Source: Coriobacteriia bacterium (GTDB lineage: Bacteria; Actinomycetota; Coriobacteriia; Anaerosomatales; PHET01). Taken from it: a stretch of 64,000 nucleotides of DNA. The DNA is taken from contig JAXMKZ010000022.1 of the NCBI GenBank assembly GCA_034370385.1, positions 4,027 through 68,026 on the forward strand, read 5' to 3'. The first letter of the stretch is position 1. The number at the start of each line of letters is the position of its first letter. Shown here piece after piece: positions 32,143 to 59,044 of the stretch. Position numbers and translations under genes: made by a program. The notes beneath the pieces are model-generated. The model saw nothing but the letters and a program-made list of their open reading frames with translations. It was not told the origin of the DNA and searched no databases.

Positions 32143-32153
32143 CGGGTGAGACA

Positions 32154-32209: not shown

Positions 32210-35200
32210 TCAGTAGTAGACGATCTGAACGGTGTCGGGCCCGAGCTTGATCATGTCGAAGAACTTGACTCTGGCTGAGCCCGAGTACGTCCTCACGTTA
32301 TTGACGGGGTCAGTGAGCCTGACGCTCCACTTGACGCTTCGGAACTGAGATCCTGACGTGCGCGCGGGAACGGTGTATTTCACCGTGTAGCTACTGCCTG
32401 CTTTGACGATGGTGTTCCTGACCCGCTTGCCGTCGATCGTCACGACCATCCTGCCGTACTGAGAGATCTTGCCGATCCTGACCGAGACGGTTCGCTTTGA
32501 GGCAGAGGAGCTGACCCGTGCTGAGGGCGCGGTCTTGTCGAGTATCACGGTTCGGTTCACCGTCGTGGTGTGGCCCATCCTGCTGTAGGCCGTGAGCGAC
32601 AGTGTGTGCCGGCCGCTAGAGAACTTCGTGAGGCTCGGCGTCAGCGTAGTAGAGATCGAGGTCCCTGCGGTGGACTTTGTCACCACGGTCTTGCCGTCGA
32701 GCTTCAAGACGAGCTTGGTCACGCCCGCACCGTCACTTGCCTTGACCGGGATCGAGGGCTTGGCACCGATAGCAGACGAGACGCTGCCGAAAGCAGCAGT
32801 GGGTGGAGCAGCGTCGACGTACGCGTAGTGCGTGCCGATGGGACCGTAGTTGCCCGCCCAGTCCTGCGCGCGGACCCGGAACGTGTGAACGCCATCAGTC
32901 AGTCCGTCTGCGGTGAACTTGGTGACATTCTGGCTGGTCTCCACCGCGGCAAGATCAGTGGCGGATGTGGACTTGGCGTTGACCGAAACCCAATACCGTG
33001 CAACACCGGAAAGTGAGTCCGCCGCCGGATTCCACTTGAACACACGCCGTGGGCTGGTGCTCCAGCTGGCGACGCCATCGTCGGGGGTTACGCCGGTTGG
33101 CGCGATGGTATCGACCAGAATCTGGCGACGGGCAACCGCCGAACCGATGGACCCGTTCTTCTCGCGACCGACTGCATGCAGGGTCCACGTGCCCTCGACG
33201 CTCGACATGCCCATTTCGTCGGCCACGCCACCAAGGTTGATGTTGAGGGAACCAGTCGCTGTGTAGTCGCTGCCAGCCGTTGGTACCGTGTTGGAAGACC
33301 GATCCATCACGTAGTAGTAGCCGTCACCGGACACGACATCAGGGGCCGCCAGAATCTGGCCTAGGAAGACGTATGTGTTCGCAAAAGACGTTTCACTCGG
33401 GTGTGACGTAGATGTGATGATCGGCCGCAGTCCGGACTTATCCAGGCTGATCGTACGGGTGAACACGCCTCGGTGGCCCAACAGGTCGTACGCCTCGATG
33501 GTCAAGGTATGCGGTCCCTGAGCGTACGAGGACAGGTTCGGAGTCATCGTGGTGGTCACCGAAGTTCCGGACACGTTCTGGCTCAGAAGGACCGTTCCAT
33601 CGATACTCAAGGTGATTCGGGTGACCTCAGCGCCGTCGGTGGCGCGGATAGTGAACGTCGGGGTGACACCGACCGGATCCGGAGGCTCGTTGACGAACAG
33701 CTCCGGTGGAGCGGCGTCGACGTAGGCCTTGTGTAGCCCGATGGCGCTGTAGTTGCCCGCCTTGTCACGAGCGCGCACGCGGAAGGTGTGGACGCCATCC
33801 GACAGGCCATCAACGGTGAACTGCGTGGTAGTGAGCGTGGTCTCAACCGCCGCCAGATCCGCCGGCGCCTCGGAGCTGGCGTTGATCGAAACCATGTAGT
33901 GCGAGAGCCCTGACAGCGCATCGACCGAGGGGGCCCAGGTGAAGGTTCTGCGGGGACTGGCCGTGTAGGTTGCGACACCGTCGTCCGGGACGGGCGTGGT
34001 CGGCGGCTCCATGTCTGCGAGGAACGGGTAGTCGACAGCGACGCTGACGTCGCCCAGTACATCCTTGGTTACGGCGTGGAGGTACCACTGCCCCCACGGC
34101 TCAGTACCAAGCTCCGTCGCGGCAGCCATGAGATCGACGGCAAGCGAGGTCCCGGTTGTGAACCCCCAGGTGGTCGGAGTGAAGGCCGCGGTGGGCGACT
34201 TATCCAGGCGATAGTAGAAGCCCTCAACCCCGTCGAAATCCGCAGGAGGTTCAAGCTGTGCGTAGAAGTAGCGCGACGAACTGAACGTGCTCGTGGTCGG
34301 GTGTGAGACGCTCGTCACCTTCGGCGGATTGGGTGGCCCGTACTTCAGAATCTGGACCGTGTTGTCCCGCGCGTTGGCGACGACCACTTCAAGCGGCGCG
34401 TCCGCATCAAGCTGCGCGATGGCAACGGCGCTCGGCTGACGACCGACGTCGATGTCACCCAGGAAGCGCATAACCCCGTTATCCTGCTGCTTGTAGATTC
34501 CCACTGAACCCGTAGAACGCAAGAAGGCCGCGTCTCCCAGGTTGTAGCTGTTGGCAACGATGAGGTCGTTCCTCGAATCCTGGTTCAGGTCCCCGATGGC
34601 CACCGCAACGGGCGCCGGCGAAATGTCGTTGCCCGTGCGGAATGTGGTAGAGGGGGTGACGGGCGCGAGTTGACCGATCGAGTTCTGGTACGAGATTCCC
34701 ACCTGACCGGTCCTGTAAGAAGCTCCGACGACATCGTTGAGACCGTCACTATTGAGGTCACCGATCTTCACGTCGCGAATCTCGCCAAGTAGGTCGGGCT
34801 GTGAGAGTCCCACCGATAGGTTCGATTGCCCTCCGCGACCAAGGTAGAAAGGCAGGAAGCCACCGGACTGGAATCCGGCGATTCCGAAGTCAGGCCAGTT
34901 GTCACCGTTGACGTCTCCGATAGCCGCTGAGAACGGGTTGCCCAATCCGTCGACGATCGTTCGATGCGTGTTCCAATGGTCGCTGGAAACAGTCCGTGTC
35001 GTCCATGAGGCACCAGAGTCCGTTGTGACCAGAATGCGCCCACCGGCTGCAGAGATGGCACCGCGGCCACCCGTGTGGAAGCTGATTCCGCGAAGGTCGA
35101 CTGTGGCTCCAAACGGCGAAACTAGGGAGCTCCACGTCACACCGGCGTCAGTGGACCGATAGATGAGGCCGTCGTTTCCGACGGCCATCACGATAGAGTT

Positions 35201-36589
35201 GTCCGCCCAAGCGACGGCGCGCAGTTCATCGGTGATGCTGGCAGAGATCGCTGTGGCTGCTCCCGACCAAGACGCGCCCGAGTCCAGCAGCATACCAACC
35301 GAACCGCCCGGAAGACTGCTGTCACCAACAGCTACCGCGCGGTCACCCGCCGGACGGACGGCGATGGCATGAAGGTCTCCGGTGAGAGCGGTGACGGATA
35401 TCTCGGTTGAGCCCTGGAAGGCCTTGTTGGTCTGGAAGACAAAACCGCCAGCGCCGCAGGTCAGCAGCTCGCCCGGCGATGGAGAGGCCGCGCCCAGAAG
35501 ATTCACTAATGGCAATCTGTTCTCTTCTGACGGAACCTCCACTGCCGGATCCGGAAGCCTCGACACGTGTGCGACCTTGCCGCCCGGGCCAACGACAAAC
35601 GCACTGGACTCGGTGTCCCATACGATCGAGGTGGCGTAGGGTTGCTCAGCCGTCAGCTGAATGACCGGCCGCCACGTGGCGCCGTCGTTTCCGCTGTAGG
35701 CGATGAAGTTGTTTCGCATAGCCGCAAAGACGATGCGGCTGAACCGATTACCCGAGATCGTGCGAATGCCCGTGGTATCGAACACCTCGTCGGAGTTGTG
35801 CGAGCTGTCAGAGCGCGGGCTCCACAGGTATCGGGGGGGAATGGCGGCAGGGGACCCGTCATCCCCGACATCGGCCGCAATCGTGCTGAGCGGGAGGCCG
35901 TCGCCGTCAGTTCGTGCGGCAAGAAAGCCCTTGCGGGTCACGGTCATGCCATTGGTGACGGGCTCTCCGCCGCCGTCGACTGTCCGCCGATACACGATCG
36001 TGCCGCCCTCGTCGCCGTTGGCGAGCGAGTGGAAGACGGGGACGGCGATGCCGAGATTGCCCGGTGCGTCGACGGTGCCTACGTCGAACCCGAAGCCTGG
36101 CGCAGCAGGTCCGCTACTTACGAGCCAGTACGCGTCGTAATACGCGGGAAGCGACAACAGATAGTCGAAGCCGCCGGACGGGTTGCGCCGAAACACGTAC
36201 AGCTCCTGGCTCATGGAATCGCCGACGATCACTTCGGACAGATTGTCCCCGGTGATGACGTCAGCGATGAAGACCGATGCAGGCGCGCTGAAGACGTTCG
36301 TGCCAGGGGCGCCCGTGAGGGGAACCCGCACGCCAGGGCTGAATGCACCTCCTCCGCTCTGCAGAAGTACCGTGAAGGATCGATCGGCGTAGTTGGCCGT
36401 CACGATGTCCTTGAGGCCATCGCCGTTCACATCCCCGATAGCCAGACCCTTCGGGGAGGTCCCGACCGGCAAGGGGGGGCCAGGCCTCAGGGTCTTGGCG
36501 GGCGCGATCCCGACGGGGACCAAGACTACCACCAGAAGCGCGGACAACAACGCGCGCGCAACTGCGGACCATCCAGCACGGATGACCAT
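32210..36589 (-). CDS. Giant secreted protein (1459 aa): FG-GAP/VCBS-like repeats, BNR (Asp-box) repeats and tandem Ig/FN3-like modules
   Basis: Signal peptide (LLVVVLVPVGIAPA|K). FG-GAP-like IGDVNGDGLKDIV, IGDVNGDNWPDFGI, IGDLNSDGLNDVV and IGDLNQDSRNDLIV. Asp-boxes SGNDGATW, STDAGVTW and TTDSGASW. The C-terminal half consists of duplicated ~300-aa modules. RBS aacaggag. No LPXTG or lipobox seen. Confidence 0.85.
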   Translation of the reverse strand: MVIRAGWSAVARALLSALLVVVLVPVGIAPAKTLRPGPPLPVGTSPKGLAIGDVNGDGLKDIVTANYADRSFTVLLQSGGGAFSPGVRVPLTGAPGTNVFSAPASVFIADVITGDNLSEVIVGDSMSQELYVFRRNPSGGFDYLLSLPAYYDAYWLVSSGPAAPGFGFDVGTVDAPGNLGIAVPVFHSLANGDEGGTIVYRRTVDGGGEPVTNGMTVTRKGFLAARTDGDGLPLSTIAADVGDDGSPAAIPPRYLWSPRSDSSHNSDEVFDTTGIRTISGNRFSRIVFAAMRNNFIAYSGNDGATWRPVIQLTAEQPYATSIVWDTESSAFVVGPGGKVAHVSRLPDPAVEVPSEENRLPLVNLLGAASPSPGELLTCGAGGFVFQTNKAFQGSTEISVTALTGDLHAIAVRPAGDRAVAVGDSSLPGGSVGMLLDSGASWSGAATAISASITDELRAVAWADNSIVMAVGNDGLIYRSTDAGVTWSSLVSPFGATVDLRGISFHTGGRGAISAAGGRILVTTDSGASWTTRTVSSDHWNTHRTIVDGLGNPFSAAIGDVNGDNWPDFGIAGFQSGGFLPFYLGRGGQSNLSVGLSQPDLLGEIRDVKIGDLNSDGLNDVVGASYRTGQVGISYQNSIGQLAPVTPSTTFRTGNDISPAPVAVAIGDLNQDSRNDLIVANSYNLGDAAFLRSTGSVGIYKQQDNGVMRFLGDIDVGRQPSAVAIAQLDADAPLEVVVANARDNTVQILKYGPPNPPKVTSVSHPTTSTFSSSRYFYAQLEPPADFDGVEGFYYRLDKSPTAAFTPTTWGFTTGTSLAVDLMAAATELGTEPWGQWYLHAVTKDVLGDVSVAVDYPFLADMEPPTTPVPDDGVATYTASPRRTFTWAPSVDALSGLSHYMVSINASSEAPADLAAVETTLTTTQFTVDGLSDGVHTFRVRARDKAGNYSAIGLHKAYVDAAPPELFVNEPPDPVGVTPTFTIRATDGAEVTRITLSIDGTVLLSQNVSGTSVTTTMTPNLSSYAQGPHTLTIEAYDLLGHRGVFTRTISLDKSGLRPIITSTSHPSETSFANTYVFLGQILAAPDVVSGDGYYYVMDRSSNTVPTAGSDYTATGSLNINLGGVADEMGMSSVEGTWTLHAVGREKNGSIGSAVARRQILVDTIAPTGVTPDDGVASWSTSPRRVFKWNPAADSLSGVARYWVSVNAKSTSATDLAAVETSQNVTKFTADGLTDGVHTFRVRAQDWAGNYGPIGTHYAYVDAAPPTAAFGSVSSAIGAKPSIPVKASDGAGVTKLVLKLDGKTVVTKSTAGTSISTTLTPSLTKFSSGRHTLSLTAYSRMGHTTTVNRTVILDKTAPSARVSSSASKRTVSVRIGKISQYGRMVVTIDGKRVRNTIVKAGSSYTVKYTVPARTSGSQFRSVKWSVRLTDPVNNVRTYSGSARVKFFDMIKLGPDTVQIVYY
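32525..34321 (-). repeat. Intragenic tandem duplication (2 x ~900 bp / ~300 aa) within the giant gene
   Basis: aa ~757-1055 and ~1056-1355 are collinear. Examples: DDGVATYTASPRRTFTWAPSVDALSGLSHYMVSINA...DGVHTFRVRARDKAGNYSAIGLHKAYVDAAPP versus DDGVASWSTSPRRVFKWNPAADSLSGVARYWVSVNA...DGVHTFRVRAQDWAGNYGPIGTHYAYVDAAPP. The DNA copies are diverged but alignable by eye. Confidence 0.75.
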
Positions 36590-36687: not shown

Positions 36688-38652
36688 TCACACACGCTCG
36701 CGTATCGTGCGCGCGAGGTCGCCACCTCCAAGCGACGCCAATCTCACATACTCCGCCCCCGACATGCGCGCTATCTCGCGAGCCGATCCGCCGCCAGCAG
36801 CTGATGCCGACGTGTCAATGAGCAGGGCGTTCACGCCGGCGGCGCGCAGCTTGACCGCGGCCGACTTCGCGTCATCGCTGCCGACGCCGCCATCCACGCC
36901 CACGTTCCCGCGGCCGTCGGTCACCAGCACGAGCCAGGGCACGGTATCAGGCTGCCTCCGGATCTCGGTTTCGAGTAGGAGTAGGGACTTCAAAATGCCG
37001 GCCGCGAGTGGAGTGGCACCACCGGTAGGAAGCCCCTGCAGTTTCAGGTTCGCCAGTTCGACGCTGCCAGTGGGCGCCAGGACGACGTCTGCGCCATTGC
37101 CCCTGAACGAGACAAGCGCAACCCTGTCACGACGCTGGTATGCGTCGACCAGCAACTCAAGCACAGCGGCCTTGGCAACCTCGATGCGCTTCGATGCCCC
37201 CATCGAACCGCTTGCATCCACACAGAACACGATTGAAGCCCCCACCTTGCGGGTGCGGACCTTCGTACGAATGTCGTCTGAGCCGACGGACACCGCGAGC
37301 CCGGAGTCAGCCGTGTCGTTGGGAGTCGCCGCTGCGGCCCGGATGGTGGCATCAAGGGCGACGTCGCCCATCCGCACGGCTCCCTTGGCCATCTCGGAGC
37401 GTGCGTACCGGCCCCGCCCGTCGTCAACGACGCTCTCCTGCCTCCGGCCGGCGATCGAGCGTCTCGTTCGGTCCATCGCCGACTCGAATGCCACGTCAGG
37501 CATAGCGGGTTCACTGGAAGCCGAATCGATCGAGCCCACCGACTCAAAGATGCTTGCCTGTCCCTGTCCCGGACCCGTCGGACTCGATGCGCTCGGCTCA
37601 CCCACGGGGCTGTCGCCCGATAGGGCTCGGACGAGCGAATCGCGCAGTGAGTCAGTGTCGGCGCGTACGTCATCGAACGGCATGCGCCGAAGCCGGTGCG
37701 CCAGAACCAAGGCCGCCACACTCTCAACGTCGGCAAGAGAGACCTCGCCGCGACCGTCAAGGGCCGCATGGGCCGCCGCGGCGCGTGCCATCACGCTGTC
37801 GGCACGGTGTCCGTCCACTTTCGCGCGTATCGCAAGGTCTGCGATCGCGTAGAGGATCTCCTCGGGTGTCTTGACGGTGCCTGCGCGCAGTTGGGAATGC
37901 TTGATCCGAGTCCGCAGCTCTCCCTCAGCGTCCTCCCAAGAACGCGCGAAGCCCGTCGGGTCCTCTTCGAAGTCGTGACGGCGACGCATGATCTCGACGC
38001 GCGCCTCCGGCTCCCTCATCGCTTCCACCTCGACACACAGCCCGAACCGATCGAGCAGCTGCGGACGAATGTCGCCTTCCTCGGGATTCATCGTCCCAAC
38101 CAGAATGAAGCGCGCAGGATGCTGCAGGGAAACGCCCTCACGCTCCACGGTGTTCACGCCCATGGCAGCGGCGTCGAGCAGGGTGTCGACGAGGTGATCG
38201 TCAAGGAGGTTGACCTCGTCGACGTAGAGGATGCCGCGGTTCGCCGCTGCAAGAAGACCGGGATGGAACTCACGCTCTCCCCTCTTGAGCGCCGCCTCGA
38301 AGTCGAGCGTCCCCACCAGACGGTCTTCCGTGGCAGACACGGGCAACTCGACGATGTGTGGAAGGCGCGACTCCTTGGGCAACGTGCCCTCTTCACGCCT
38401 CTCGCGGCATTCCGTGCACCATGACGAGGGCTCTGCAGGGTCGCAGCCGAAGCGACACCCGCTTACGACAACGATCGCGGGCAGCACGCTGGCGAGCGCG
38501 CGAACTGCGGTCGACTTGGCCGTGCCCTTCTCGCCGCGAATCAGGACGCCGCCGACGCGGGGGTCGACCGCGTTGAGGATGAGTGCCGCCTTCAGTGCCT
38601 CCTGGCCGACGATGGCCGAGAACGGGAACGTCTGTACCGGCCTTGGGGTCAC
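36688..38652 (-). CDS. ChlI/ChlD-type chelatase-like fusion: N-terminal AAA+ ATPase plus C-terminal vWA (MIDAS) domain
   Basis: [16 protein letters not shown], Walker [10 protein letters not shown], the Cys-rich ChlI insertion GCRFGCDP...CTECR, Walker [23 protein letters not shown], and v[14 protein letters not shown]. The GTG at 38652 is preferred (TGA-cGGGAGccca-GTG junction with the upstream gene); the track ATG at 38745 would overlap that gene by 83 nt. Confidence 0.85.
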
Positions 38653-38662: not shown

Positions 38663-39823
38663 TCACATCCACTGGAACGACCCGCAGCTGGCAGGGTCAC
38701 GCTGGCCCTTGTTGGGACACGTGTCGTGGTAGACGCAGTCATCACAGGTCATCGTGTCGAGCGGATCTGTGGCCACAACGGGCGGAAGGTCGACGAAATC
38801 CGAGTCACCCGCCACCGTCGAACTGACGTCGAGGTCATCGGAAACCTGGGCGGACTCGCCTGCGGTCGGATCCGCGGCAGCTGAGTCGCCCGTGTTGTCG
38901 GCCGCCGGCAGGCTCGCGGGCGACGAAGGCGGAATCACCGGCGGGACAGGAATCTCGGGCTTGTGCGGCTCGCTGACAGGTGACGATTCGGCACCATCCG
39001 GCCCCGGTGCAGACTGATCATCAGCCGCGGGAGGCAGCAATACGTCGACCTCAGACACGGTAGCGACCTCGTCGTACGCGCCGAGAATGACCGGGCGGGA
39101 CGACGCCATCGTCGCATCATCCCCAGGTGCTCTCACGAGCGAACCCTCGTCGTCTCCCGGCTCGTCCAGAGCATCGAGATCAAGCGGCGAGACATCCGGC
39201 TTAACGGCCCAAGGCCAAGAGCCTTCGTCGGCACCCTCGATCTGGGCCTCAACCACCATGGCGTCTGACGGAGGCTCCGCGAGCGGGTCGGCGCCCTCAT
39301 CGACCGGCTCCTCCTCGGCGGGCAGATCGGGTTCGTCGGGCTCAACCGGCCCGACGGACTCGGGAGCCACGATGCCCTCGGCCTCCAGACTGACCGCGGA
39401 CCGGCGGAGCGCCTCCTTGAGGTCGGGGGCAGCGTCGCTCTCATCGTCCAGCCCCTCGATCACCGCGGCGAGCGACTCGTCCGCCTCATCGACGGTGGGT
39501 GTGGCCTGCGTATCGGCTGCGACAGCACCGTCATCCTCGGCCGGTTCACCCTCGGACGGCCCAACCTCGTCGGTCGGCCCAACCTCGTCGGCCGGCTCAA
39601 CCTCCTCGGGCTCAACAACCTGCGATGCCGCCGGCCTGACAAGAAGCACGGGGGTGGCAGCGTCCAGGTCCGCGACCAGTACCTCGCAATCCCACGCATC
39701 GAACCCGGGATCTGCCGTGACGCGCGATAGCTCGCTCATGGCACTGGCGCGGGTCTCGAAGACACCCTCAGCAAGGAGCCGGAGCGAATCGTCGGGTCCC
39801 TTTCCGATCAGGAAGAACGGCAT
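38663..39823 (-). CDS. Hyper-acidic, Pro/Ala/Val-rich (likely disordered) protein with a short folded-looking N-terminus and a C-terminal C-x2-C-x5-CP-x9-C motif
   Basis: 386 aa. The N-terminal ~70 aa [35 protein letters not shown]... are followed by a long D/E/P-rich region and the end ...[32 protein letters not shown]3-rich codons throughout. A promoter-like element lies upstream. Confidence 0.65.
39557..39610 (-). repeat. 18-bp tandem repeat x3 inside the acidic-protein gene
   Basis: cggcccaacctcgtcggt / cggcccaacctcgtcggc / cggctcaacctcctcggg, encoding ...[17 protein letters not shown]... Confidence 0.7.
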
Positions 39824-39885
39824 GGCCTACCCCTCGTCGAGTGTGTGCGAACGCGCGAACCACCTGCGCGTGACGACGCGCTCCT

Positions 39886-39914
39886 ATCGTAGAGCCGCAG
39901 ACCGAAGGCGGCAA
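39886..39914 (-). promoter_or_regulatory. Candidate sigma70-type promoter of the acidic-protein / ChlID operon
   Basis: Minus-strand TTGCCG-17 nt-TACGAT, ~60 nt upstream of the ATG at 39823. Confidence 0.4.
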
Positions 39915-39948
39915 CCGTGACCCGAGCACAAAGGCATGTCCTCTGTGA

Positions 39949-40809
39949 TCACGAGCACGCTACACGAAGCGCCTTGAGGCGAGCGATGTTGGTCGCATCC
40001 TTCTCGGGCACCTCGCCCGGCATCTCGGTGACCACGGGAACCTGCGCAAGATCGGGCTCGCAGATCATGGCACGGAAGCCCTCGGTTCCGATGGAGCCAT
40101 CGCCTATCCACGCATGTCGGTCACGGTGGCTACCCCGGTCGAACATGCAGTCGTTGGCGTGAATGAGTCCGACCCGGTCCAGCCCAAGGACCTCTCTCAT
40201 CTCTGACACCAGCTCGACCCAGCCCACCGAAGTGGACAGGTCGTCCCCGAATGCGAAACCGTGGCATGTGTCGAAGCAGATGCCAATCACCTCAGGCGGC
40301 AACTCCGTGGCTGCGATCACTGAGGCCAGCTCCCTCACCGAGCCGCCGAACGTGCTCCCGGCTCCCGCGGTGTTCTCGAGGAGCAGCCGCGCACGGTCAG
40401 GACTGACTGCCGCGAGTTCATACGCCTCGGTGATCGCTTTCCCGCAGCGGACGGCCGCGACCACGGGATCGGCCTTCGGGTCGGTCCCGAGGTGGGTCAC
40501 AACCCCATCGACCCCAAGTGCTGCACCTCGACGCAGTTCGTCAGCCAATGCGACCACGGATTTCTCGCGCATGATCGGATCGTCCGTGGTCAGGTTGATG
40601 AGGTAGGCGGTGTGAGTGAACACGGGACCGAATCCTCGTGCCGCTCTATCGGCCACGAACGCTTGGGCCGCGTCCGAATCCAGCGCCGCGCCCTTCCACT
40701 GCCGAGGGCTCTTCGCGAAGAGCTGGATGCACTCGCATCCCACGTCTTGGGCATAGTCGAGTGCGGCACCATAGCCCTTCGAGACCGACACGTGCGCTCC
40801 TATGAGCAT
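39949..40809 (-). CDS. nfo: Endonuclease IV (AP endonuclease family 2)
   Basis: MLIGAHVSVSKGYGAALDYAQDVGCECIQLFAKSPRQW is collinear with the start of E. coli Nfo as recalled, and metal-ligand His/Asp/Glu positions are present. The ATG at 40809 is preferred over the track start at 40848. Confidence 0.88.
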   Translation of the reverse strand: MLIGAHVSVSKGYGAALDYAQDVGCECIQLFAKSPRQWKGAALDSDAAQAFVADRAARGFGPVFTHTAYLINLTTDDPIMREKSVVALADELRRGAALGVDGVVTHLGTDPKADPVVAAVRCGKAITEAYELAAVSPDRARLLLENTAGAGSTFGGSVRELASVIAATELPPEVIGICFDTCHGFAFGDDLSTSVGWVELVSEMREVLGLDRVGLIHANDCMFDRGSHRDRHAWIGDGSIGTEGFRAMICEPDLAQVPVVTEMPGEVPEKDATNIARLKALRVACS

Positions 40810-40873
40810 GCGACTCCCGTCACGAGGGGCAGTTAGGACCTGGTCCATTCTACCCGTACAGCGGATACACTCG

Positions 40874-42130
40874 ATGGTGTCAGTGCAACCGCAAGAGGTG
40901 ACAGTTTCAGTGATCGACGTCGATGCGACGATTCTTCCTCCGTGGAGCGCCCGCGCGCTTCTGCACGTGGATTTGGACGCCTTCTTCGCCGCCGTCGAGC
41001 AGCTGGATCACGCCGAGTGGCGCGGCCGACCGGTCATCGTGGGGGGTCACAGCTCTCGACGAGGGGTGGTATCGACCGCAAGTTACGAGGCACGCGCTTT
41101 CGGCGTGCATTCGGGCATGCCCTCGGTCAGGGCCGCCTCGCTGTGTCCCGATGCGGTGTGGGCGCCACCCCGGTTCTCGCGGTACAAGGAGCTTTCCGAT
41201 GCGGTGTTTCGCATCTTCGAGCACCACGCGGCCCTCGTGCAGCCTGTGTCTGTGGACGAGGCATTCCTTGACGTCACCTCCGGGCGCTACGCAGGCGAGC
41301 ATCCCGTAGAGATCGCCCGCCGGATCAGGGCCGATGTCGCGCTTCTTGGGCTTACCGCCTCGGTGGGAGTTGCGACATCCAAGACGGTGGCCAAGATCGC
41401 ATCAGACCACGACAAACCCGATGGTCTCACCGTGGTGTGGCCCGGTGAGGAGGCGCAGTTCCTGGCGCCCCTGCCGGTTCGCGCCATGGGCGGCATCGGA
41501 CCCCGAACCACGGATCGGCTTCAGGCCCTGGGAATCCACACCCTGGGGAGCCTGGCTGCGCTCGACGAGATGACGGCCCGTTCGGTGCTTGGCGTGGATG
41601 GCCTCGGTTACGTGCTCCGCGCCCAAGGGGTAGATCCGAGTCCCGTTCGAGACAACGAGGCCGTGAAGTCGGTCTCGAAGGAGAGAACCTTCGCTACGGA
41701 CAAGCGCACCGTGGCAGAGGTTGAGCATGAACTCCAAGACCTTGTCTCGCGAGTATGCTCGCGCCTGCGGTCCAAGGGAGTCGCCGGACGAACCGTGACG
41801 GTGAAGCTTCGTTTCGGCGACTTCACCACGCGCACAGCCCGCAAGACGCTTGCCGACTCAACGAACGATGAGACTATCGTGGGCGAGGTCGCCCTCGACC
41901 TCTTGCGGGATACGTGGTCGGCCGGGGTGGGGCTGCGTTTACTTGGCGTCGGCGTCTCGGGGCTTTCCACACCCGCCACGCAGTTGGACCTGTTCGGGGC
42001 GGACCCGGCCGTAACAAAGGTAGGGCGAACCGGACTGGTGGAGAACATCGATGCGATTCGGAAGAGGTTTGGGCATGATGCGGTACGATTCGGCACCGAG
42101 CTAACCGATCGCAAGGGTCCCGAGAGATGA
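40874..42130 (+). CDS. dinB: DNA polymerase IV (Y-family), catalytic residues present
   Basis: LHVDLDAFFAAVEQ, SVDEAFLDVT and the little-finger region. ATG at 40874 (MVSVQPQ...); the track start at 40802 overlaps the divergent nfo. Confidence 0.88.
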   Translation: MVSVQPQEVTVSVIDVDATILPPWSARALLHVDLDAFFAAVEQLDHAEWRGRPVIVGGHSSRRGVVSTASYEARAFGVHSGMPSVRAASLCPDAVWAPPRFSRYKELSDAVFRIFEHHAALVQPVSVDEAFLDVTSGRYAGEHPVEIARRIRADVALLGLTASVGVATSKTVAKIASDHDKPDGLTVVWPGEEAQFLAPLPVRAMGGIGPRTTDRLQALGIHTLGSLAALDEMTARSVLGVDGLGYVLRAQGVDPSPVRDNEAVKSVSKERTFATDKRTVAEVEHELQDLVSRVCSRLRSKGVAGRTVTVKLRFGDFTTRTARKTLADSTNDETIVGEVALDLLRDTWSAGVGLRLLGVGVSGLSTPATQLDLFGADPAVTKVGRTGLVENIDAIRKRFGHDAVRFGTELTDRKGPER

Positions 42131-42564
42131 ATCCTCACCGCGTCATCATGGCTGCAGCGGTCGCTTGTGTCCTCATGGCACCAGGCTGTGCTCCTCCACC
42201 TGAGGACCCTGTGACGACCGGGGTTCCGGCTGGCCGGCAAGCCGAGTCGGTGTCGCGCCCCGGACTCACGCGAACCGGAGACCAGAACGAAGCCACTGCC
42301 GTCGGCACGCTGGTATTCCGTCGCGACCAGGGCGGTTTCTTCGGCTTGGCGGACATGACTCCCTCTCAAGAACCGTCCACCGATGCGCGCATTCTTGTCG
42401 TTCTCGTTCAAGAGGACGGCAATCGAAGCGCTCCGGACCTTGCCCCTCTGGTGGGCGCCTACTGTGCGTTTTCCGGCACCCTTCGCACCGAGACGACGCT
42501 CACGCCCATCCCCGAGCTGGTCTTTGACTCATACCGGGTCCTCGTCCCTGTGCCTGGGCCCTAG
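42127..42564 (+). CDS. Hypothetical lipoprotein (paralog A)
   Basis: 145 aa. Lipobox LMAPGC. The ATG overlaps the dinB TGA (ATGA at 42127-42130). Confidence 0.6.
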   Translation: MNPHRVIMAAAVACVLMAPGCAPPPEDPVTTGVPAGRQAESVSRPGLTRTGDQNEATAVGTLVFRRDQGGFFGLADMTPSQEPSTDARILVVLVQEDGNRSAPDLAPLVGAYCAFSGTLRTETTLTPIPELVFDSYRVLVPVPGP

Positions 42565-42637
42565 CTCGGTGAACCGCCGGCTGGTTTCAGTCGTCCAAGT
42601 GGGTGCGAACACTGCAACTTCGATCCGAGGAGGCCGA

Positions 42638-43090
42638 ATGCTTCTCAAGGCGTTGGTAGCGGCAGCACTGGTCGGGACCCTGTCCGTAGCTGTCGGATGC
42701 TCTGGGCCACAGTCCGGTCTCGAACCTGAGCCGGCTCCGATTGTCGAATCTCCTCCGGCGGAGTCCCCCGCGGCGGGTTCGCGGCTGGCTTTGGGACTGT
42801 ATGAGTTGGAGGATGGAACGGCTCAGGCGCTCGGAACCCTCGAGTGGGTCGATCTTGAGGGTGGGTTTTGGGCGATCAAGGGTGGAACCGAGGCGGAGGG
42901 TAACGTCGGCGCAACCGTCGCGGTACTTGCCAACGGTCCCGCTTTCGAACAGGAACTCAAGCCGCTGGAGGGCAAGACGGTCATGATCGTAGGTACCCTC
43001 CTGGATGGAGCATCCATCCGCATGGCAGGTCCCGAGATCGAGATGACCGAAGTCACTGAGGTCTCCGACACTATCGATCCGGCCCAGTAG
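42638..43090 (+). CDS. Hypothetical lipoprotein (paralog B)
   Basis: ATG at 42638 preceded by gaggagg. 150 aa. Lipobox SVAVGC. Shares GTL..(7-8 aa)..GGF(F/W) and ...GTL... blocks with paralog A. Confidence 0.6.
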   Translation: MLLKALVAAALVGTLSVAVGCSGPQSGLEPEPAPIVESPPAESPAAGSRLALGLYELEDGTAQALGTLEWVDLEGGFWAIKGGTEAEGNVGATVAVLANGPAFEQELKPLEGKTVMIVGTLLDGASIRMAGPEIEMTEVTEVSDTIDPAQ

Positions 43091-43133: not shown

Positions 43134-46100
43134 TCACGCTCCGGCCGTTTCGGATTCAGCTGCGGCCCACGACTCCTCTTCGGGCGCTCCGGCACCACCA
43201 AGGGACGGACCCATCGGTCCGCTCGGCACGCCCCGGCGCAGCCGTACCGGAGAGCCGCCCGGTGATCTTACGACGTAGGGCCGCACGTCTTCGGCCACAA
43301 TCGCGAGACCTCGTTCGTGATTGTTCTGCAAGGTCCCATCCACGAGGTAGGCGCGATGCTTCACTATGGCGTCGCCGGCGCGCTGAAGCGCATCCTCAAA
43401 CACCACTACGTCGAGCAAACCGGTGGCGTCCTCCAGCGTGAGAAAGCACGTTCGCTTCCCCGAGCGCGTCCGTGGGGTCTGGGCCCGCTCTCGGACTCCG
43501 GCCACGCGCACCCTCGTGCGGTCAGGTAGGCCGCGCAGGTCGCGTGCGAAGGTGACCCCACGTGCGATGAGGTCGGCCTCTGCCAAATCCAACGGGTGGC
43601 TCGTGAGAGAGAGTCCCGTGAGCTCAAGTTCGGCTGAAAGCCTGCGCGCCACGCCCCAACCGCTCACGTGGTCCGGATCCTCAGGCGGCCGGATTCGCGC
43701 CGGCGCGAGGCACAAGGTGTCGTCACCGGCGACCCCCTCGCGCGCGATAACCGCCTTGAGTTCAGGTAGGAGCGCAAGCATTTCATCGCGCGTCGGCGGC
43801 CTGCCCGCCCCGGTGGTCCCGAGCCCGTCGAGTGCCCCGATGCGGATGAGCGACTCCGCCGCCGGCAGCTCGGCACGTGTACGGCGCACAAAGTCAGCGA
43901 GGTCCCGAAAGGGCCGCACCGCGCGTTCCACCGGAACCGTTGCAAGAAGGCGAGCCGTCATCGCATGGACATCCTTCAGGCCGATACGGATGGCCGCCCC
44001 ATCCGAGGCGACCGTATGGTCGACGGCGCTGTCGTTGACGTGGGGAGCCAGAATCTCGATGCCATGGCGTCGTGCGTCGTTGACCACAAGCCGAGGCGTG
44101 TAGAAGCCCATAGGTTCGTGGTTCAGAATCGCGCAGCTGAACTCGGCCGGGTAGTACGTTTTCAGCCATGCGCTGGCGTAGGAGACCACCGCGAAGCACG
44201 CGGCATGCGCCTTGTTGAAGCCGTACGCCGCGAAACCCTCAAGCTGCCGAAAGACCTCAGCAGCCACCTCAGCATCTACCCCGCGCGCCATCGCCTTCTC
44301 CAAGAAGTGAGCGCGGATCGCCTCCATCTGTTCGCGGCTCCGTCCCTTGGTCATGGCACGACGCAACGAATCCGCCTCGGCCAGCGTGAAGCCCGCGACT
44401 TCGCGTGCAACGAGCAAGACCTGCTCCTGGTAGACGATGACGCCATACGAGTCGGCAAGTACCTCTCGCATGTTTTCATGCGGAACCGTCACCGGCTCGA
44501 TTCCATGCCGACGGCGGATGAACGGGGTGATCATCTCGGCTTCGAGTGGTCCGGGCCGAAACAGCGAGATCTGAGCGATGATGTCTTCGAAGCGGTTCGA
44601 CTTCAGCCGTGTCGACAGATTGCGTTGGCCACTGCTCTCAAGCTGGAACATCCCGACTGAGTCCGCCGCAGCGATCATCTCGTAGACACGCGGATCGTCC
44701 TTAGGCAGTTCGAACGGCTCAGGGACCGCAGCGACTCCCACACGCTCGCGTGCCATCTCGACCGCTGACGAGATGGCCGAATGCATCCGTAGACCGAGAA
44801 TGTCCATCTTCACGAGTCCGAGCGCCTCGATATCGTCTTTGTCGTACTGCGAGACGACCACCCCCTTGGCCGCCCACTGAAGCGGCATCCAGCTCGCCAC
44901 CGGGTCTCGGGTGATGATGAAGCCGCCCAGATGGGTGCCGAGGTGAGTCGGCGTGCGGTCGAGCTGTTCGGCGATCTCGAGAATGGGCGCGTAGCGCGCC
45001 TCATGCAGCGGGTGATCGCGGCACTCGGGATAGGTTTCAAGCACCTCCCTGATCTTGCGCGCGCTCACCCATGGCAGATAGCGGGAAAGCGAGTTGACCT
45101 CTGCGATTGGCAGTCCGAACGCTCGAGCCGCAATACGCACAGCGCTTCTGGCCGTGGTGGTCTGCACGGTGGCTACCATAGCGACGTGCTCGGAGCCGAA
45201 CCGCCGATAGATGAACTCGATGACCTCGTCGCGTCGCGCGGAGTCGAAGTCGACGTCGATGTCGGGCATCTGCCGGCGCTCGGGATTCAAGAAGCGCTCG
45301 AAGAGCAGGTCATGGGCGATGGGGTCCGCGTCGGTGATACCCAGAGCGAACGCGACGATGCTATCGCCTGCGCTCCCCCGTCCGCTGCAGCGGATCCTCT
45401 TCGCCTTCGCGAAGTCCACGATCTCCTTCACCACGAGGAAATACTCCGCAAACCCCATCTGGTCTATAAGCGTCAGCTCGTGCTGCAGCCTGCGAATCGC
45501 CTCCGGGATCATCGGCGAATAGCGCCGCTCCAGCCCACGCCACGACTCCTTGGCGAGCACCGAATACGCCGTCTCGCCCCTTGGCAAATCGGCTCCCGGG
45601 AAGTGGAACTGCCCGAGCGGCAGCTCGAAATCGGCACACATCGAAGCGATTTCGAGAGTCGCGTCACAGGCACGTTCGCACCCGGCGAACAGGCGGCGCA
45701 TCTCTGTGGGGGATTTGAGCCACAGTTCGGCGTTGGGCCGGTCGTAGGGTCCTGGCAGCGCCATGCGCGCACCGACGCTTGCGAGCACATCGTGGATGCG
45801 GTGGCCCTCAGGGCGCAGATAGTGGACGTCGTTCGTAGCCACCACGGGAAAGCTGAGGTCATCGGCCGCCTCGACAAGACCGCCGATGATACGGGGGCTC
45901 TCCGCGGTGAGCGGATGCACCAGCTCGACGAAGAACGCGCCGGGCTCGAAACAGTTCGCCAGGCGCATGAGTGCCGATCGAGCCCGCCCGGGGCGTGCGT
46001 GTGCCACCGAAAGCGCTGCCTCGCCGTTCCCGCAACCCGACAGGGCGATGAGCCCTTCGCCGAAGTGTTCCAGATCGCGAAGGGAGACGACGCTTGGTAC

Positions 46101-46514
46101 CTCGGGCCCACGCAGATGAGTACGGGAGAGCAACCGACACAAGTTGCGATAGCCGGCGAAATCGCGCGCGAGCACCGTCAGATGAAAACCGAACGCCGAC
46201 GCGCGACCGAATCCCACCCGTGCCGGAAGAACGAGACGCGACTCGGGCGGCAGATCGGCCTCCTCGCCAAGCACGCCGGCGGCTTCAACGACGATCTCGC
46301 AACCGATGATCGGAGCGATGCCGGCATCCCTACAGGCGCGATAGAAGCGGATGGCACCCGAAAGACCCTGATGGTCCGTGAGCGCCAGAGCGGGCATCTC
46401 GAGCTCCGCCGCACGCTCCACGAGCGCGGGTAACGGACAGGCGCCGTCGTGGAAGCTGAAGTTGGAGTGTGTATGCAGGTGCACAAAGGCCGTCGACACG
46501 GGAACCCGTCCCAC
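43134..46514 (-). CDS. dnaE2: Error-prone DNA polymerase III alpha-like subunit (DnaE2/ImuC-type)
   Basis: 1126 aa, GTG start. The N-terminal PHP domain starts FVHLHTHSNFSFHDGA, and the alpha-subunit palm/fingers are present. The length and the LexA-box-controlled operon context fit DnaE2 rather than replicative DnaE1. Confidence 0.8.
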   Translation of the reverse strand: MGRVPVSTAFVHLHTHSNFSFHDGACPLPALVERAAELEMPALALTDHQGLSGAIRFYRACRDAGIAPIIGCEIVVEAAGVLGEEADLPPESRLVLPARVGFGRASAFGFHLTVLARDFAGYRNLCRLLSRTHLRGPEVPSVVSLRDLEHFGEGLIALSGCGNGEAALSVAHARPGRARSALMRLANCFEPGAFFVELVHPLTAESPRIIGGLVEAADDLSFPVVATNDVHYLRPEGHRIHDVLASVGARMALPGPYDRPNAELWLKSPTEMRRLFAGCERACDATLEIASMCADFELPLGQFHFPGADLPRGETAYSVLAKESWRGLERRYSPMIPEAIRRLQHELTLIDQMGFAEYFLVVKEIVDFAKAKRIRCSGRGSAGDSIVAFALGITDADPIAHDLLFERFLNPERRQMPDIDVDFDSARRDEVIEFIYRRFGSEHVAMVATVQTTTARSAVRIAARAFGLPIAEVNSLSRYLPWVSARKIREVLETYPECRDHPLHEARYAPILEIAEQLDRTPTHLGTHLGGFIITRDPVASWMPLQWAAKGVVVSQYDKDDIEALGLVKMDILGLRMHSAISSAVEMARERVGVAAVPEPFELPKDDPRVYEMIAAADSVGMFQLESSGQRNLSTRLKSNRFEDIIAQISLFRPGPLEAEMITPFIRRRHGIEPVTVPHENMREVLADSYGVIVYQEQVLLVAREVAGFTLAEADSLRRAMTKGRSREQMEAIRAHFLEKAMARGVDAEVAAEVFRQLEGFAAYGFNKAHAACFAVVSYASAWLKTYYPAEFSCAILNHEPMGFYTPRLVVNDARRHGIEILAPHVNDSAVDHTVASDGAAIRIGLKDVHAMTARLLATVPVERAVRPFRDLADFVRRTRAELPAAESLIRIGALDGLGTTGAGRPPTRDEMLALLPELKAVIAREGVAGDDTLCLAPARIRPPEDPDHVSGWGVARRLSAELELTGLSLTSHPLDLAEADLIARGVTFARDLRGLPDRTRVRVAGVRERAQTPRTRSGKRTCFLTLEDATGLLDVVVFEDALQRAGDAIVKHRAYLVDGTLQNNHERGLAIVAEDVRPYVVRSPGGSPVRLRRGVPSGPMGPSLGGAGAPEEESWAAAESETAGA

Positions 46515-46958: not shown

Positions 46959-46995
46959 CGACCCCGGTTGATCGCGCGTGACGCGCCACGGTTCG

Positions 46996-47024
46996 ACTAT
47001 ACCGAACATATGTTCGGTCTACAA
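46996..47024 (-). promoter_or_regulatory. SOS promoter with embedded LexA (Cheo-type) box
   Basis: Minus strand: TTGTAG-accGAACATATGTTCgg-TATAGT, i.e. -35 and -10 hexamers separated by 17 nt. The spacer contains the perfect palindrome CGAACATATGTTCG (47003-47016). Confidence 0.8.
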
Positions 47025-59028: not shown

Positions 59029-59044
59029 CGAATTCCCTTCTCGG

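What the first reader, a model, noticed from the sequence alone, without database searches (positions are those of the whole stretch)
38663..39823. Acidic intrinsically-disordered-looking protein with a terminal C-x2-C-x5-CP-x9-C knuckle and an in-frame 18-bp repeat tract
Seen in sequence:
- After a ~70-aa N-terminal segment of ordinary composition, about 280 aa are dominated by D, E, P, A and V.
- The last 31 aa are [30 protein letters not shown], with four Cys spaced like a small metal-binding module.
- The gene contains three tandem 18-bp units (39557-39610) encoding (D/E)EVGP(T/S)-type repeats, a possible length-variable tract.

Inference: I do not recognise this architecture as a named family. 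It could be an adaptor or substrate for the adjacent AAA+-vWA protein, or a polyanionic (DNA- or polyphosphate-mimicking) factor.
Basis: partly seen in the sequence, partly recalled or inferred. Interest (0 to 1): 0.55.

Follow-up and report, generated by a model that had tools for sequence, protein, structure and literature searches.

The report
Acidic knuckle protein beside chelatase motor
This is a real, well-conserved but undescribed protein of uncultured anaerobic Coriobacteriia: a small folded head, a ~290-residue strongly acidic disordered middle studded with short conserved motifs, and a four-cysteine metal-binding tail. It is usually co-transcribed with a chelatase-type AAA+/vWA ATPase whose function without a large subunit is not known, so it is a candidate partner for that motor.

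Summary
Window 38663-39823 (-) is a genuine 386-aa gene with coding-type codon GC, a Shine-Dalgarno site, its own conserved promoter and 476 representative homologues.

Architecture:
- N-terminal beta-beta-alpha-beta domain, aa 1-64, pLDDT 96-98.
- Polyanionic disordered region, net charge -77, carrying conserved islands.
- C-terminal C-x2-C-x5-CP-x9-C-G-S-F-Q-W knuckle with invariant Cys.

No Pfam, NCBIfam, PDB or significant fold match was found. All 80 listed genomic hits are Coriobacteriia/Actinomycetota MAGs.

A ChlI/BchD-type AAA+-vWA gene starts 10 nt downstream. It has intact Walker motifs and MIDAS. No cobN or B12 gene lies in the 64 kb window. It follows the target in most of the 83 loci, but was deleted in at least three lineages.

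Two islands track this neighbour:
- The [13 protein letters not shown] motif is present in 52/57 targets with the motor and 2/11 without.
- RPVILG is present in 49/57 and 2/11.
- The head, WPW and knuckle persist regardless.

Best reading (inferred, confidence 0.4): a modular disordered hub. Two motifs dock the motor; the head and metal knuckle carry a motor-independent core function that remains unknown.

The 18-bp repeat is real but not conserved. It is ordinary slippage in a disordered region.

The parts
39886..39914 (-). Own sigma-70-type promoter: -35 TTGCCG (39914-39909), 17-nt spacer, -10 TACGAT (39891-39886). It lies about 35 nt after the nfo stop codon and about 62 nt before the ATG.
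   Evidence: Sequence read. The pattern TTGC[CT]N-N16-19-TA[CG][CG]AT is present in 48 of 65 orthologous upstream regions, against 0.03 expected in shuffles, always 47-66 nt before the start codon. It falls below the threshold of the generic promoter scan. The evidence is cross-species conservation, not consensus strength.
39830..39835 (-). Shine-Dalgarno site GAGGGG, 7 nt upstream of the ATG.
   Evidence: An SD-like purine run is present in 64 of 65 orthologous upstream regions.
38663..39823 (-). Coding sequence of the 386-aa acidic protein, stop codon included (TGA at 38663-38665).
39632..39823 (-). N-terminal folded domain, aa 1-64: beta(3-8)-beta(14-16)-alpha(25-37)-beta(47-52). M1, F3, L5, R25, A28, L32, D52, P58 and V59 are conserved.
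   Evidence: AlphaFold2 pLDDT is 96-98 in the full-length model and 93.5 mean (pTM 0.73) for the domain alone. Conservation. No significant structural neighbour.
38759..39631 (-). Polyanionic, predicted-disordered region, aa 65-355. It is 65% D/E/P/A/V and 2.4% K+R.
   Evidence: Composition. pLDDT is mostly below 60 outside the islands. The polyanionic character is conserved in 118 homologues although the sequence is not.
39552..39609 (-). 18-bp tandem repeat, 3.2 copies, 90% match, encoding [18 protein letters not shown]. It lies in the non-conserved spacer just after the N-domain.
   Evidence: The column conservation in this stretch is near zero.
39344..39427 (-). Island 1, aa 133-160: amphipathic helix plus extended motif, L..AL.R(T/S)A..(M/L)[12 protein letters not shown]. 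This is the candidate docking module for the downstream AAA+-vWA.
   Evidence: Conserved. Helix 135-148 has pLDDT 72-79. Present in 52/57 targets with the AAA+-vWA gene downstream and in 2/11 without.
39200..39229 (-). Island 2, aa 199-208: the WPW(D/A) motif. P204 is invariant; W203 and W205 are at least 90% conserved.
   Evidence: Present whether or not the AAA+-vWA gene is present (55/57 and 9/10).
39152..39187 (-). Island 3, aa 213-224: L-D-x-L-(D/E)-E-P. It is conserved in part of the family only.
39062..39106 (-). Island 4, aa 240-254: RPVILGxYxE. This is the second motif that tracks the AAA+-vWA gene.
   Evidence: Present in 49/57 and 2/11.
38780..38812 (-). Island 5, aa 338-348: SDF(I/V)DL, a sub-family motif.
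38666..38758 (-). C-terminal Cys4 knuckle, aa 356-386: (Y/M)TC-DD-C-VYxxT-CP-x9-CGSFQW(K/M), at or within three residues of the C-terminus in every homologue.
   Evidence: C360, C363, Y365, C369, P370, P377, C380, F383, Q384 and W385 are invariant in 111 sequences. pLDDT is 70-88. The motif alone retrieves only fragments of the same family.
36688..38652 (-). Downstream operon partner: a 654-aa ChlI-like AAA+ module fused to a BchD-like vWA/MIDAS domain. The likely start is GTG 38652, 10 nt after the target's stop, preceded by GGGAG.

Best explanation
The gene encodes a modular, mostly disordered polyanionic hub protein, transcribed from its own conserved promoter together with a ChlI/BchD-type AAA+-vWA ATPase.

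Two of its short linear motifs serve to dock it onto that motor. These are the amphipathic helix followed by [11 protein letters not shown] (aa 133-160) and RPVILGxY (aa 243-250). The most plausible docking site is the vWA domain, whose MIDAS site in characterised relatives binds the client subunit in a Mg-dependent way.

The N-terminal beta-beta-alpha-beta domain, the WPW motif and the C-terminal Cys4 knuckle carry a core function that does not need the motor. The knuckle binds a metal, either Zn or an Fe-S cluster.

In this reading the protein takes the place that the large porphyrin-binding subunit (ChlH/CobN) has in true chelatases. It would act either as the client that the motor remodels or as an adaptor bringing the motor to a client.

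**Shown:** the gene is real, the domain and motif anatomy, the operon arrangement, and the covariation of motifs with the neighbour.

**Inferred:** physical binding, which motor surface is used, the identity of the metal, and the biological process.
For: **Operon arrangement.**
- The target's TGA is followed by GGGAG and a GTG start 10 nt later.
- A conserved promoter lies upstream of the target only.
- The motor gene is immediately downstream, on the same strand, in most of the 83 loci spanning targets down to about 29% identity.

**Motif-neighbour covariation.**
- The helix-APES motif is present in 52/57 targets with the motor gene downstream and 2/11 without (Fisher p = 1.9e-6).
- RPVILG is present in 49/57 and 2/11 (p = 2e-5).
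- The deletions fall in at least three separate clades of an Nfo tree.
- The head, WPW and knuckle are kept everywhere.

**The motor looks functional and client-less.**
- Walker A/B and MIDAS (DASGSM, T, D) are kept in 62/62 orthologues.
- The N-terminal half matches ChlI at E 1e-99 and the C-terminal half matches the BchD vWA domain at 4e-26.
- No cobN, chlH or B12/tetrapyrrole gene was found among 24 predicted genes Pfam-scanned in the 64 kb window, and no other ORF is long enough (1000+ aa) for a large subunit.
- It scores below the TIGR02442 cut-off, 723.7 against 779.45.

**Precedent.**
- The integrin-I/MIDAS domain of ChlD governs Mg-dependent binding of ChlH (PMC6604950).
- Orphan chlD genes without a large subunit exist in strict anaerobes, and their function is stated to be unknown (PMC9227772).

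**Selection on islands.** Between 88%-identical homologues the islands are 100% identical and the spacers diverge.
Against: - No interaction was tested.
- Gene order in this whole region is conserved across the clade (DnaE, DinB, Nfo, target, RNase P RNA, GlnRS). Adjacency alone is therefore weak evidence.
- The covariation is imperfect. Five lineages keep the motor but lack a detectable helix motif (L047, L053, L069, L074, L078). Two keep the motifs without an adjacent motor (L015, L031).
- The Fisher tests are not corrected for phylogeny. The effective number of independent events is about three to four.
- I could not check whether genomes with the local deletion encode the motor elsewhere, or whether any of these genomes has cobN.
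- The motif scores come from HMMs built mostly on motor-positive sequences. Divergent motifs may therefore be missed.
Confidence: 0.4

Rival explanations
1. The acidic protein works on its own as a polyanionic regulator or mimic. It would compete with nucleic acid or polyphosphate for basic proteins, or buffer cations. The head and knuckle would anchor it to a partner such as a DNA-repair or transcription factor. The AAA+-vWA gene is then only a neighbour that was inserted or lost next to it.
For: - The polyanionic character is conserved: D+E is 18-34%, K+R is 1-5%, and net charge is -37 to -139 in 118 homologues, while the sequence is free to vary.
- The gene persists, with head, WPW and knuckle intact, in all 13 loci where the motor gene is deleted.
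- It always follows nfo inside a DUF6504-DnaE / DinB / Nfo neighbourhood.
- It has its own strong, conserved promoter.
Against: - This does not explain why two specific conserved motifs disappear together with the motor gene in separate clades.
- It does not explain the 10-nt coupling of the two genes.
- The DNA-repair neighbourhood is part of a long syntenic core block that also includes tRNA synthetases, RNase P RNA, MetK and PriA. It therefore carries little functional information.
- No test of mimicry was possible.
Confidence: 0.25
2. The C-terminal knuckle holds an oxygen- or iron-sensitive [4Fe-4S] cluster, and the protein is a redox or iron sensor. Cluster state would control what the disordered region binds, possibly including the motor.
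For: - The C-x2-C-x5-C triad plus a fourth Cys, with Pro after the third Cys and invariant aromatic residues (Y365, F383, W385), is invariant.
- From my own knowledge, not tested here: the C-x2-C-x5-C triad ligates [4Fe-4S] clusters in FNR, WhiB-like proteins, endonuclease III/MutY and AddB/Cas4-type nucleases.
- The cultivated members of the related order Anaerosomatales are obligate anaerobes (PMC9686372).
- The neighbouring motor carries its own invariant Cys4 insert.
Against: - Four Cys within 21 residues fits a structural Zn knuckle equally well.
- No sequence or profile match to any Fe-S family was found.
- In the named Fe-S families the fourth Cys is usually upstream of the triad; here it is downstream.
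Confidence: 0.2
3. The ORF is not a real gene: it is a long chance ORF in GC-rich DNA or a decaying pseudogene.
For: - Low-complexity composition, and no database annotation beyond 'hypothetical protein'.
Against: - Codon-position GC is of the coding type.
- A Shine-Dalgarno site and a conserved promoter are present.
- There are 476 representative homologues with invariant residues at both ends and in the islands.
- The terminal domains are predicted with high confidence.
Confidence: 0.01

Closest known systems
Class I (Mg/Co) chelatase: ChlI/ChlD motor with its MIDAS-bound large subunit ChlH/CobN
   Same: The neighbour has the ChlI-type AAA+ module and the BchD-type vWA domain with an intact MIDAS site. 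In the real enzyme the integrin-I/MIDAS domain of ChlD binds the client subunit in a Mg-dependent way (PMC6604950). The acidic protein sits where a client gene would be expected, in one operon with the motor.
   Different: The acidic protein has no similarity to ChlH/CobN. It is 386 aa against more than 1000 aa, has no Pfam hit, and is mostly disordered. The window holds no tetrapyrrole or B12 genes. The motor and bridge functions lie in one polypeptide, with no frameshift signal. The motor scores below the TIGR02442 cut-off.
Orphan chlD / fs-chlD genes of strict anaerobes that lack a large subunit (Kuznetsov, Milenkin and Antonov 2022, PMC9227772)
   Same: It is a ChlD-architecture gene in an anaerobic lineage, with no chelatase large subunit or pathway genes nearby. 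The paper states that the function of such complexes is unknown.
   Different: Here the full-length protein is in one frame and has no slippery site. The paper does not mention any acidic partner gene. Whether these Coriobacteriia lack cobN genome-wide was not testable.
MoxR/ChlI-type AAA+ with vWA partner systems that remodel a metalloprotein client (CbbQ-CbbO, NorQ-NorD, CoxD-CoxE, RavA-ViaA). This comparison rests on my own knowledge.
   Same: The logic is an AAA+ ring plus a vWA/MIDAS adaptor engaging an acidic residue on a client. The clients are often metal-centre proteins, and the acidic protein has a Cys4 metal site.
   Different: In those systems the AAA+ and vWA parts are separate proteins and the clients are large folded enzymes. 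Here the candidate client is a polyanionic disordered protein. Nothing shows metal-centre maturation.
[4Fe-4S] proteins with a C-x2-C-x5-C triad (FNR, WhiB-like, EndoIII/MutY, AddB/Cas4). This comparison rests on my own knowledge.
   Same: The triad spacing is identical. A fourth, more distant Cys is present, and aromatic residues lie around the site.
   Different: There is no sequence homology. The fourth Cys is downstream, at x10. The module is only about 30 aa long and sits at the extreme C-terminus. The metal is unknown.
Small beta-beta-alpha-beta domains of phage and bacterial proteins (DUF2188 / DUF7336-like)
   Same: The topology and size match the N-terminal domain. Foldseek against BFVD gives TM 0.45-0.6 and probability up to 0.99.
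   Different: E-values are 0.05-0.3, which is not significant. There is no Pfam hit to these families. They have no known function, so no inference follows.

Membership tests
WhiB-like (Wbl) Fe-S proteins | Match to the Pfam Whib model. Cys order C-Xn-C-X2-C-X5-C, followed by a G[VI]WGG turn and a basic tail. | tested here: not met
   No Pfam hit for the whole protein or the C-terminal 45 aa at E<=10. The fourth Cys is downstream of the triad. The tail is CGSFQW(K), with no GVWGG motif and no basic tail.
Zinc ribbon / rubredoxin-type Cys4 (two CxxC knuckles) | Two C-x2-C (or CPxCG) knuckles. | tested here: not met
   Only one C-x2-C pair is present, and the other two Cys are single (x5 and x10 spacings). 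This holds in 111 sequences. No Pfam zinc-ribbon model matches.
Metal-binding Cys4 module (generic) | Four invariant Cys close together in sequence, in a confidently predicted compact module. The metal must be shown by analysis. | tested here: inconclusive
   The invariance and pLDDT of 70-88 are met. The metal content and its identity cannot be tested here.
Chelatase large subunit (ChlH/BchH/CobN) | A protein of more than 1000 aa matching the CobN/Mg-chelatase Pfam model and binding porphyrin. | tested here: not met
   The protein is 386 aa, has no Pfam hit, and is mostly disordered.
TIGR02442 'putative cobaltochelatase' (for the neighbouring gene) | Score at or above the curated cut-off of 779.45 bits. 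| tested here: not met
   The score is 723.7 bits over the full length.
TIGR02442 'putative cobaltochelatase' (for the neighbouring gene) | Proximity to cobN or to cobalt/B12 genes. This is the family description as I recall it. | tested here: not met
   No cobN, cobalt-transport or B12 gene was found among the 24 predicted genes Pfam-scanned in the 64 kb window, nor in the flanks of L001-L003. The rest of the genome could not be examined.
ChlI/BchD-type AAA+-vWA (for the neighbouring gene) | ChlI-like AAA+ module with Walker A/B. vWA domain with the MIDAS motif DxSxS plus T and D. | tested here: met
   PDB matches are ChlI at E 1e-99 and the BchD vWA domain at 4e-26. [23 protein letters not shown]547 and D579 are invariant. 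All are kept in 62/62 orthologues.
DUF2188-like small domain (for the N-terminal domain) | Pfam DUF2188 match or a significant structural match. | tested here: inconclusive
   No Pfam hit. The BFVD DUF2188 protein matches at TM 0.46-0.58 with E 0.27. The best PDB match is PaaB, at TM 0.5 and E 2.5.
Anti-phage defence system component | Match to a PADLOC model. | tested here: not met
   No hit for the target. The neighbour has only a 13.6-bit generic AAA match. The locus lies in a syntenic housekeeping core.

The most novel reading that the evidence does not exclude
The acidic protein is the physiological client of a porphyrin-independent class I chelatase motor. In these anaerobes the ChlI-vWA ATPase would grip the protein through its MIDAS site, using the [13 protein letters not shown] and RPVILG motifs. 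It would then use ATP to remodel or load the C-terminal Cys4 (Fe-S) site, or to deliver the polyanionic chain with its bound cations to a target. That would give the first function for the 'orphan ChlD' complexes that lack any large subunit, and would hint at what the chelatase motor did before tetrapyrrole chelation.
Probability: 0.15. Interest if true: 0.75.

Novelty: new variant of a known kind. Interest (0 to 1): 0.5.

Why it matters
The protein family is sizeable: 476 clusters at 50% identity and 102 species-level genomes. It is completely unannotated and is confined to poorly studied subsurface and sediment Coriobacteriia.

Its association with a ChlI/BchD-type AAA+-vWA ATPase that has no large subunit or tetrapyrrole genes nearby bears on a question left open in the literature. 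That question is what such orphan chelatase motors do (PMC9227772).

The motif-by-neighbour covariation turns the question into a concrete experiment. Two defined peptides are predicted to bind one defined domain.

It is also a clear bacterial example of a long polyanionic disordered protein in which selection acts on short linear motifs and on net charge, not on sequence.

Tried and rejected
**Searches that found nothing**
- Pfam and NCBIfam on the whole protein, and Pfam on five separate pieces at E<=10, gave nothing.
- PADLOC gave nothing.
- PDB sequence profiles of the C-terminal and N-terminal parts gave only artefacts: a copper-ATPase 'MTCxxC' hit at E 1.1, and designed armadillo repeats built from many weak repeated matches.
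- Foldseek against the PDB, with the full model and with the N-domain alone, gave no hit better than E 0.6. The geometrically best was PaaB at TM 0.5.
- Foldseek against BFVD gave only sub-significant similarity to small uncharacterised phage proteins.
- HHalign of the target family against the neighbour family gave no relationship, at probability 0.1. The idea that the protein is a detached ChlD linker is therefore rejected.

**Searches that did not do what I wanted**
The repeat returned only fragments of the same family, and the word index passed just 40 candidates, so it says little about other families.
- The homologue search with the neighbour returned only the same clade, at 59% identity or more. 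The planned comparison with outgroup chelatases next to cobN could not be made.

**Features looked for and not found**
- Programmed frameshifting in the neighbour: no slippery heptamer.
- LexA, iron or other operators upstream: only the promoter and SD site are conserved, and I saw no conserved palindrome.
- The generic promoter/terminator scan missed the promoter because its consensus match is below threshold.

**Technical failure**
- A first MAFFT run with L-INS-i timed out.

**Readings rejected**
- RiPP precursor: no maturase gene is present, and the 'leader' would be about 350 aa.
- Secreted or membrane protein: there is no hydrophobic segment.
- Defence system: the locus is in a syntenic core.
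Full report
**1. The observation**

The ORF at 38663..39823 on the minus strand encodes 386 aa.

- Residues 66-355 are 65.5% A, P, D, E and V. Only 2.4% are K or R. The whole protein has a net charge of -77.
It is 30 residues, not 31. The Cys residues are at 360, 363, 369 and 380, giving C-x2-C-x5-C-P-x9-C.
- Tandem Repeats Finder reports an 18-bp repeat with 3.2 copies at 90% match, at 39552-39609. It encodes [18 protein letters not shown].

The frame is translated by every test available.

- Codon-position GC is 0.77/0.50/0.75, like the neighbouring genes. The long antisense ORF at 39087..39920 has the mirror pattern 0.49/0.80/0.76.
- A GAGGGG Shine-Dalgarno site precedes the ATG.
- The identical protein is deposited as a 'hypothetical protein' of a Coriobacteriia MAG (P0001).

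**2. It is a family**

- A word-indexed search found 120 homologues, all unnamed.
- An exhaustive profile search of 1.84 billion representatives found 476 at E<=1e-3 and 456 at E<=1e-10. The best 150 are all full-length proteins of 263-560 aa.
- A scan of one genome per species found 102 encoding genomes. The 80 listed are all MAGs labelled Coriobacteriia, Actinomycetota or similar, including one Anaerosomatales. No isolate is among those listed.
- The cultivated members of the related order are obligate anaerobes from the subsurface (PMC9686372).

**3. Anatomy**

In a 111-sequence alignment, conservation is concentrated in islands:

| Island | Residues | Motif or feature |
|---|---|---|
| N-terminal domain | 1-64 | M1, F3, L5, R25, A28, L32, D52, P58, V59 conserved |
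| Helix-APES | 133-160 | [19 protein letters not shown] |
| WPW | 203-205 | WPW |
| LD.LEEP | 216-222 | conserved in part of the family |
| RPVILG | 243-252 | RPVILG.Y.E |
| SDFIDL | 341-346 | conserved in part of the family |
| C-terminal module | 356-386 | TCDDCVY..TCP...Q..P..CGSFQWK |

In the C-terminal module, ten positions are invariant, including all four Cys.

AlphaFold2 with this alignment gives the following:

- Residues 1-60: pLDDT 96-98, forming beta3-8, beta14-16, alpha25-37 and beta47-52.
- Helix 135-148: pLDDT 72-79.
- The last ~35 residues: pLDDT 70-88.
- Most of the rest: below 60.

The N-domain predicted alone reaches a mean pLDDT of 93.5 and pTM of 0.73.

The polyanionic character is itself conserved. 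In 118 homologues the middle region is 180-480 aa long, with D+E 18-34%, K+R 1-5% and net charge -37 to -139.

Two homologues that are 88% identical are 100% identical across the islands. They differ mainly in the spacers, including a 6-aa repeat indel.

**4. No known relatives**

- Pfam and NCBIfam give nothing for the whole protein. Pfam gives nothing for the pieces at E<=10.
- PDB sequence profiles give only artefacts.
- Foldseek against the PDB gives nothing better than E 0.6 for either model.
- Foldseek against BFVD gives sub-significant matches (E 0.05-0.3, TM about 0.5) to small uncharacterised phage proteins, some labelled DUF2188 or DUF7336. This describes a common small fold and gives no function.
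- A profile of the knuckle alone retrieved only fragments of the same family. That search scored just 40 candidates.

**5. Context**

The target has its own promoter: -35 TTGCCG at 39914-39909, a 17-nt spacer, and -10 TACGAT at 39891-39886. The pattern TTGC[CT]N-N16-19-TA[CG][CG]AT occurs in 48 of 65 orthologous upstream regions, against 0.03 expected in shuffles. It always lies 47-66 nt before the start codon.

Ten nucleotides after the target's TGA, preceded by GGGAG, a GTG at 38652 opens a 654-aa gene.

- Its N-terminal half matches ChlI structures at E 1e-99, and its C-terminal part matches the BchD vWA domain at 4e-26.
- It scores 723.7 bits on TIGR02442 'putative cobaltochelatase', below the cut-off of 779.45.
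- Walker A (GEKGTAKST), Walker B (LYVDEVN) and the MIDAS residues (DASGSM, T547, D579) are invariant. So is a Cys4 insert, C-x3-C-x8-C-x2-C, inside the AAA+ module. All are kept in 62 of 62 orthologues.
- The gene has no slippery heptamer, so there is no sign of the frameshifting described for some chlD genes (PMC9227772).

The 24 predicted genes of the 64 kb window that I scanned against Pfam include no cobN, chlH, cobalt-transport, B12 or tetrapyrrole gene, and no other ORF in the window is long enough to encode a large subunit. The window holds housekeeping genes: PriA, MetK, GluRS, GlnRS, RNase P RNA, DnaE with DUF6504, DinB, Nfo, an IdeR-like repressor, MnmA, a cysteine desulfurase and the riboflavin genes with their FMN riboswitch.

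**6. How tight is the link to the motor?**

I examined 83 loci: three from look-ups and 80 from the genome scan.

- Nfo lies upstream in nearly all of them. In some, a divergently oriented RNaseT/UvrC-like gene sits in between.
- The AAA+-vWA gene is the immediate downstream neighbour on the same strand in most.
- In 13 loci with enough flank it is absent. There the target is followed directly by the RNase P RNA region and GlnRS, or in L015 and L031 by a secreted protein.

The association is therefore frequent but not obligate.

I then scored each island with a small HMM in every locus.

| Island | With motor gene downstream | Without |
|---|---|---|
| Helix-APES (at least 30 bits) | 52/57 | 2/11 |
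| RPVILG | 49/57 | 2/11 |
| WPW | 55/57 | 9/10 |
| Knuckle | all | all |

The Fisher p-values are 1.9e-6 for helix-APES and 2e-5 for RPVILG.

On a neighbour-joining tree of Nfo the deletions fall in at least three separate clades. In the largest of them the earliest branch (L015) still has the motifs, and the later branches have lost them.

The caveats are these.

- The tests are not corrected for phylogeny.
- Five motor-positive lineages lack a detectable helix motif.
- The HMMs were trained mostly on motor-positive sequences.
- I could not check whether the motor is encoded elsewhere in the deletion genomes.

**7. Most likely mechanism**

The pattern fits a modular hub. The head, WPW and the metal knuckle form a universal core that works without the motor. 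The [13 protein letters not shown] and RPVILG motifs are an add-on that matters only when the motor is present, so they are the likely docking sites.

In true Mg-chelatase the integrin-I/MIDAS domain of ChlD binds the large subunit ChlH in a Mg-dependent manner (PMC6604950). Here no large subunit gene is nearby, and an acidic, motif-bearing protein is in the operon instead.

Kuznetsov et al. describe chlD genes in strict anaerobes that lack a large subunit and both pathways. They state that the function of such complexes is unknown (PMC9227772). The present locus looks like a further case and adds a candidate partner.

Binding, the surface used, and the process served are all inferences. I put this reading at 0.4.

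**8. The metal site**

The triad C-x2-C-x5-C with a fourth Cys is the spacing I know from [4Fe-4S] ligation in FNR, WhiB-like proteins, EndoIII/MutY and AddB/Cas4 nucleases. That is recalled from memory and was not tested here. The invariant Pro after the third Cys and the invariant aromatic residues would fit a shielded cluster in an anaerobe.

Four Cys within 21 residues fit a structural zinc knuckle equally well. The module fails the membership tests for Wbl proteins and for two-knuckle zinc ribbons. The metal is undetermined.

**9. The repeat**

The 18-bp tract lies in a spacer with near-zero conservation and has no counterpart in homologues. Of 120 family members, 25 carry other exact tandem peptide repeats, such as (EP)n, PEAAE x3 and EGEVPEEIEL x4, at various positions. 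The 88% pair differs by a repeat-associated indel. This is ordinary slippage in a disordered spacer. Strain-level variation at this tract could not be checked.

**10. Verdict**

The 'adaptor or substrate of the AAA+-vWA' is now the leading hypothesis, with comparative support but without proof. The mimic idea stays open.

I rate it a new variant of a known kind: an AAA+/vWA motor with a MIDAS-bound client or adaptor, in which the client is an undescribed polyanionic disordered protein with a Cys4 knuckle. Interest is 0.5.

Noticed in passing
window 36688-38652 (-), about aa 66-82 of the AAA+-vWA protein: The ChlI-like AAA+ module carries an invariant Cys4 insert, GCRFxCDPxDPGSWCxEC (C-x3-C-x8-C-x2-C). 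It is kept in 62 of 62 orthologues. It is a second probable metal site in the operon, of unknown role.
   Followed up: partly
window 36688-38652 (-), linker about aa 390-420: The linker between the AAA+ and vWA parts has a conserved basic block, LDRxRRSIxGRRQ..RGRYxRSE. From memory, canonical ChlD has an acidic, proline-rich stretch in this position. A basic patch facing a polyanionic partner would make sense, but this was not tested.
   Followed up: no
window 32210-36589 (-): A 1459-aa predicted surface protein with FG-GAP, Big_13 and BNR-like repeats follows the AAA+-vWA gene. The gene at this position differs between genomes: a 487-aa Big_13/Big_7 protein in L003 and 508-516-aa secreted proteins in L015 and L031. 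The segment between the target and RNase P RNA is therefore a variable spot in an otherwise fixed gene order.
   Followed up: partly
window 31793-32143 (+): The bacterial RNase P RNA gene scores 282.7 bits. In genomes without the AAA+-vWA gene it lies directly after the target. There its six-frame translation appeared as a spurious 'EWACKPDSV' ORF.
   Followed up: yes
window 43134-47009 (-), 40802-42130 (+), 39949-40848 (-): A DUF6504 gene abuts a 1126-aa DnaE-type Pol III alpha gene. Next come DinB, divergently oriented, and Nfo. The order is conserved in all loci. In about a third of them an RNaseT/UvrC_M-domain gene lies between nfo and the target. It looks like a DNA-damage-tolerance cluster, but no SOS-type operator was seen upstream of the target.
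   Followed up: partly
window 60187-60306 (-) and 57128-60214 (-): An FMN riboswitch (114 bits) lies upstream of the ribD and ribBA riboflavin genes. This is ordinary.
   Followed up: no
window 42127-43090 (+): Two small ORFs between dinB and dnaE look like lipoproteins or secreted proteins (145 aa and 235 aa). The 235-aa one has no Pfam hit.
   Followed up: no
L060 and P0094; L058, L059, L078: Some family members have striking expansions in the disordered region: EGEVPEEIEL x4, or (EP)n runs of tens of residues. The spacer length is free to vary from 180 to 480 aa.
   Followed up: partly
L048, L049, L056, L062, L072 (targets without the AAA+-vWA gene): These targets lack the helix-APES and RPVILG motifs and share a different short motif, VSGLLADLEEI. 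A related DALLADLE occurs in P0002 and P0003. It may be a further docking motif, but it was not analysed.
   Followed up: no
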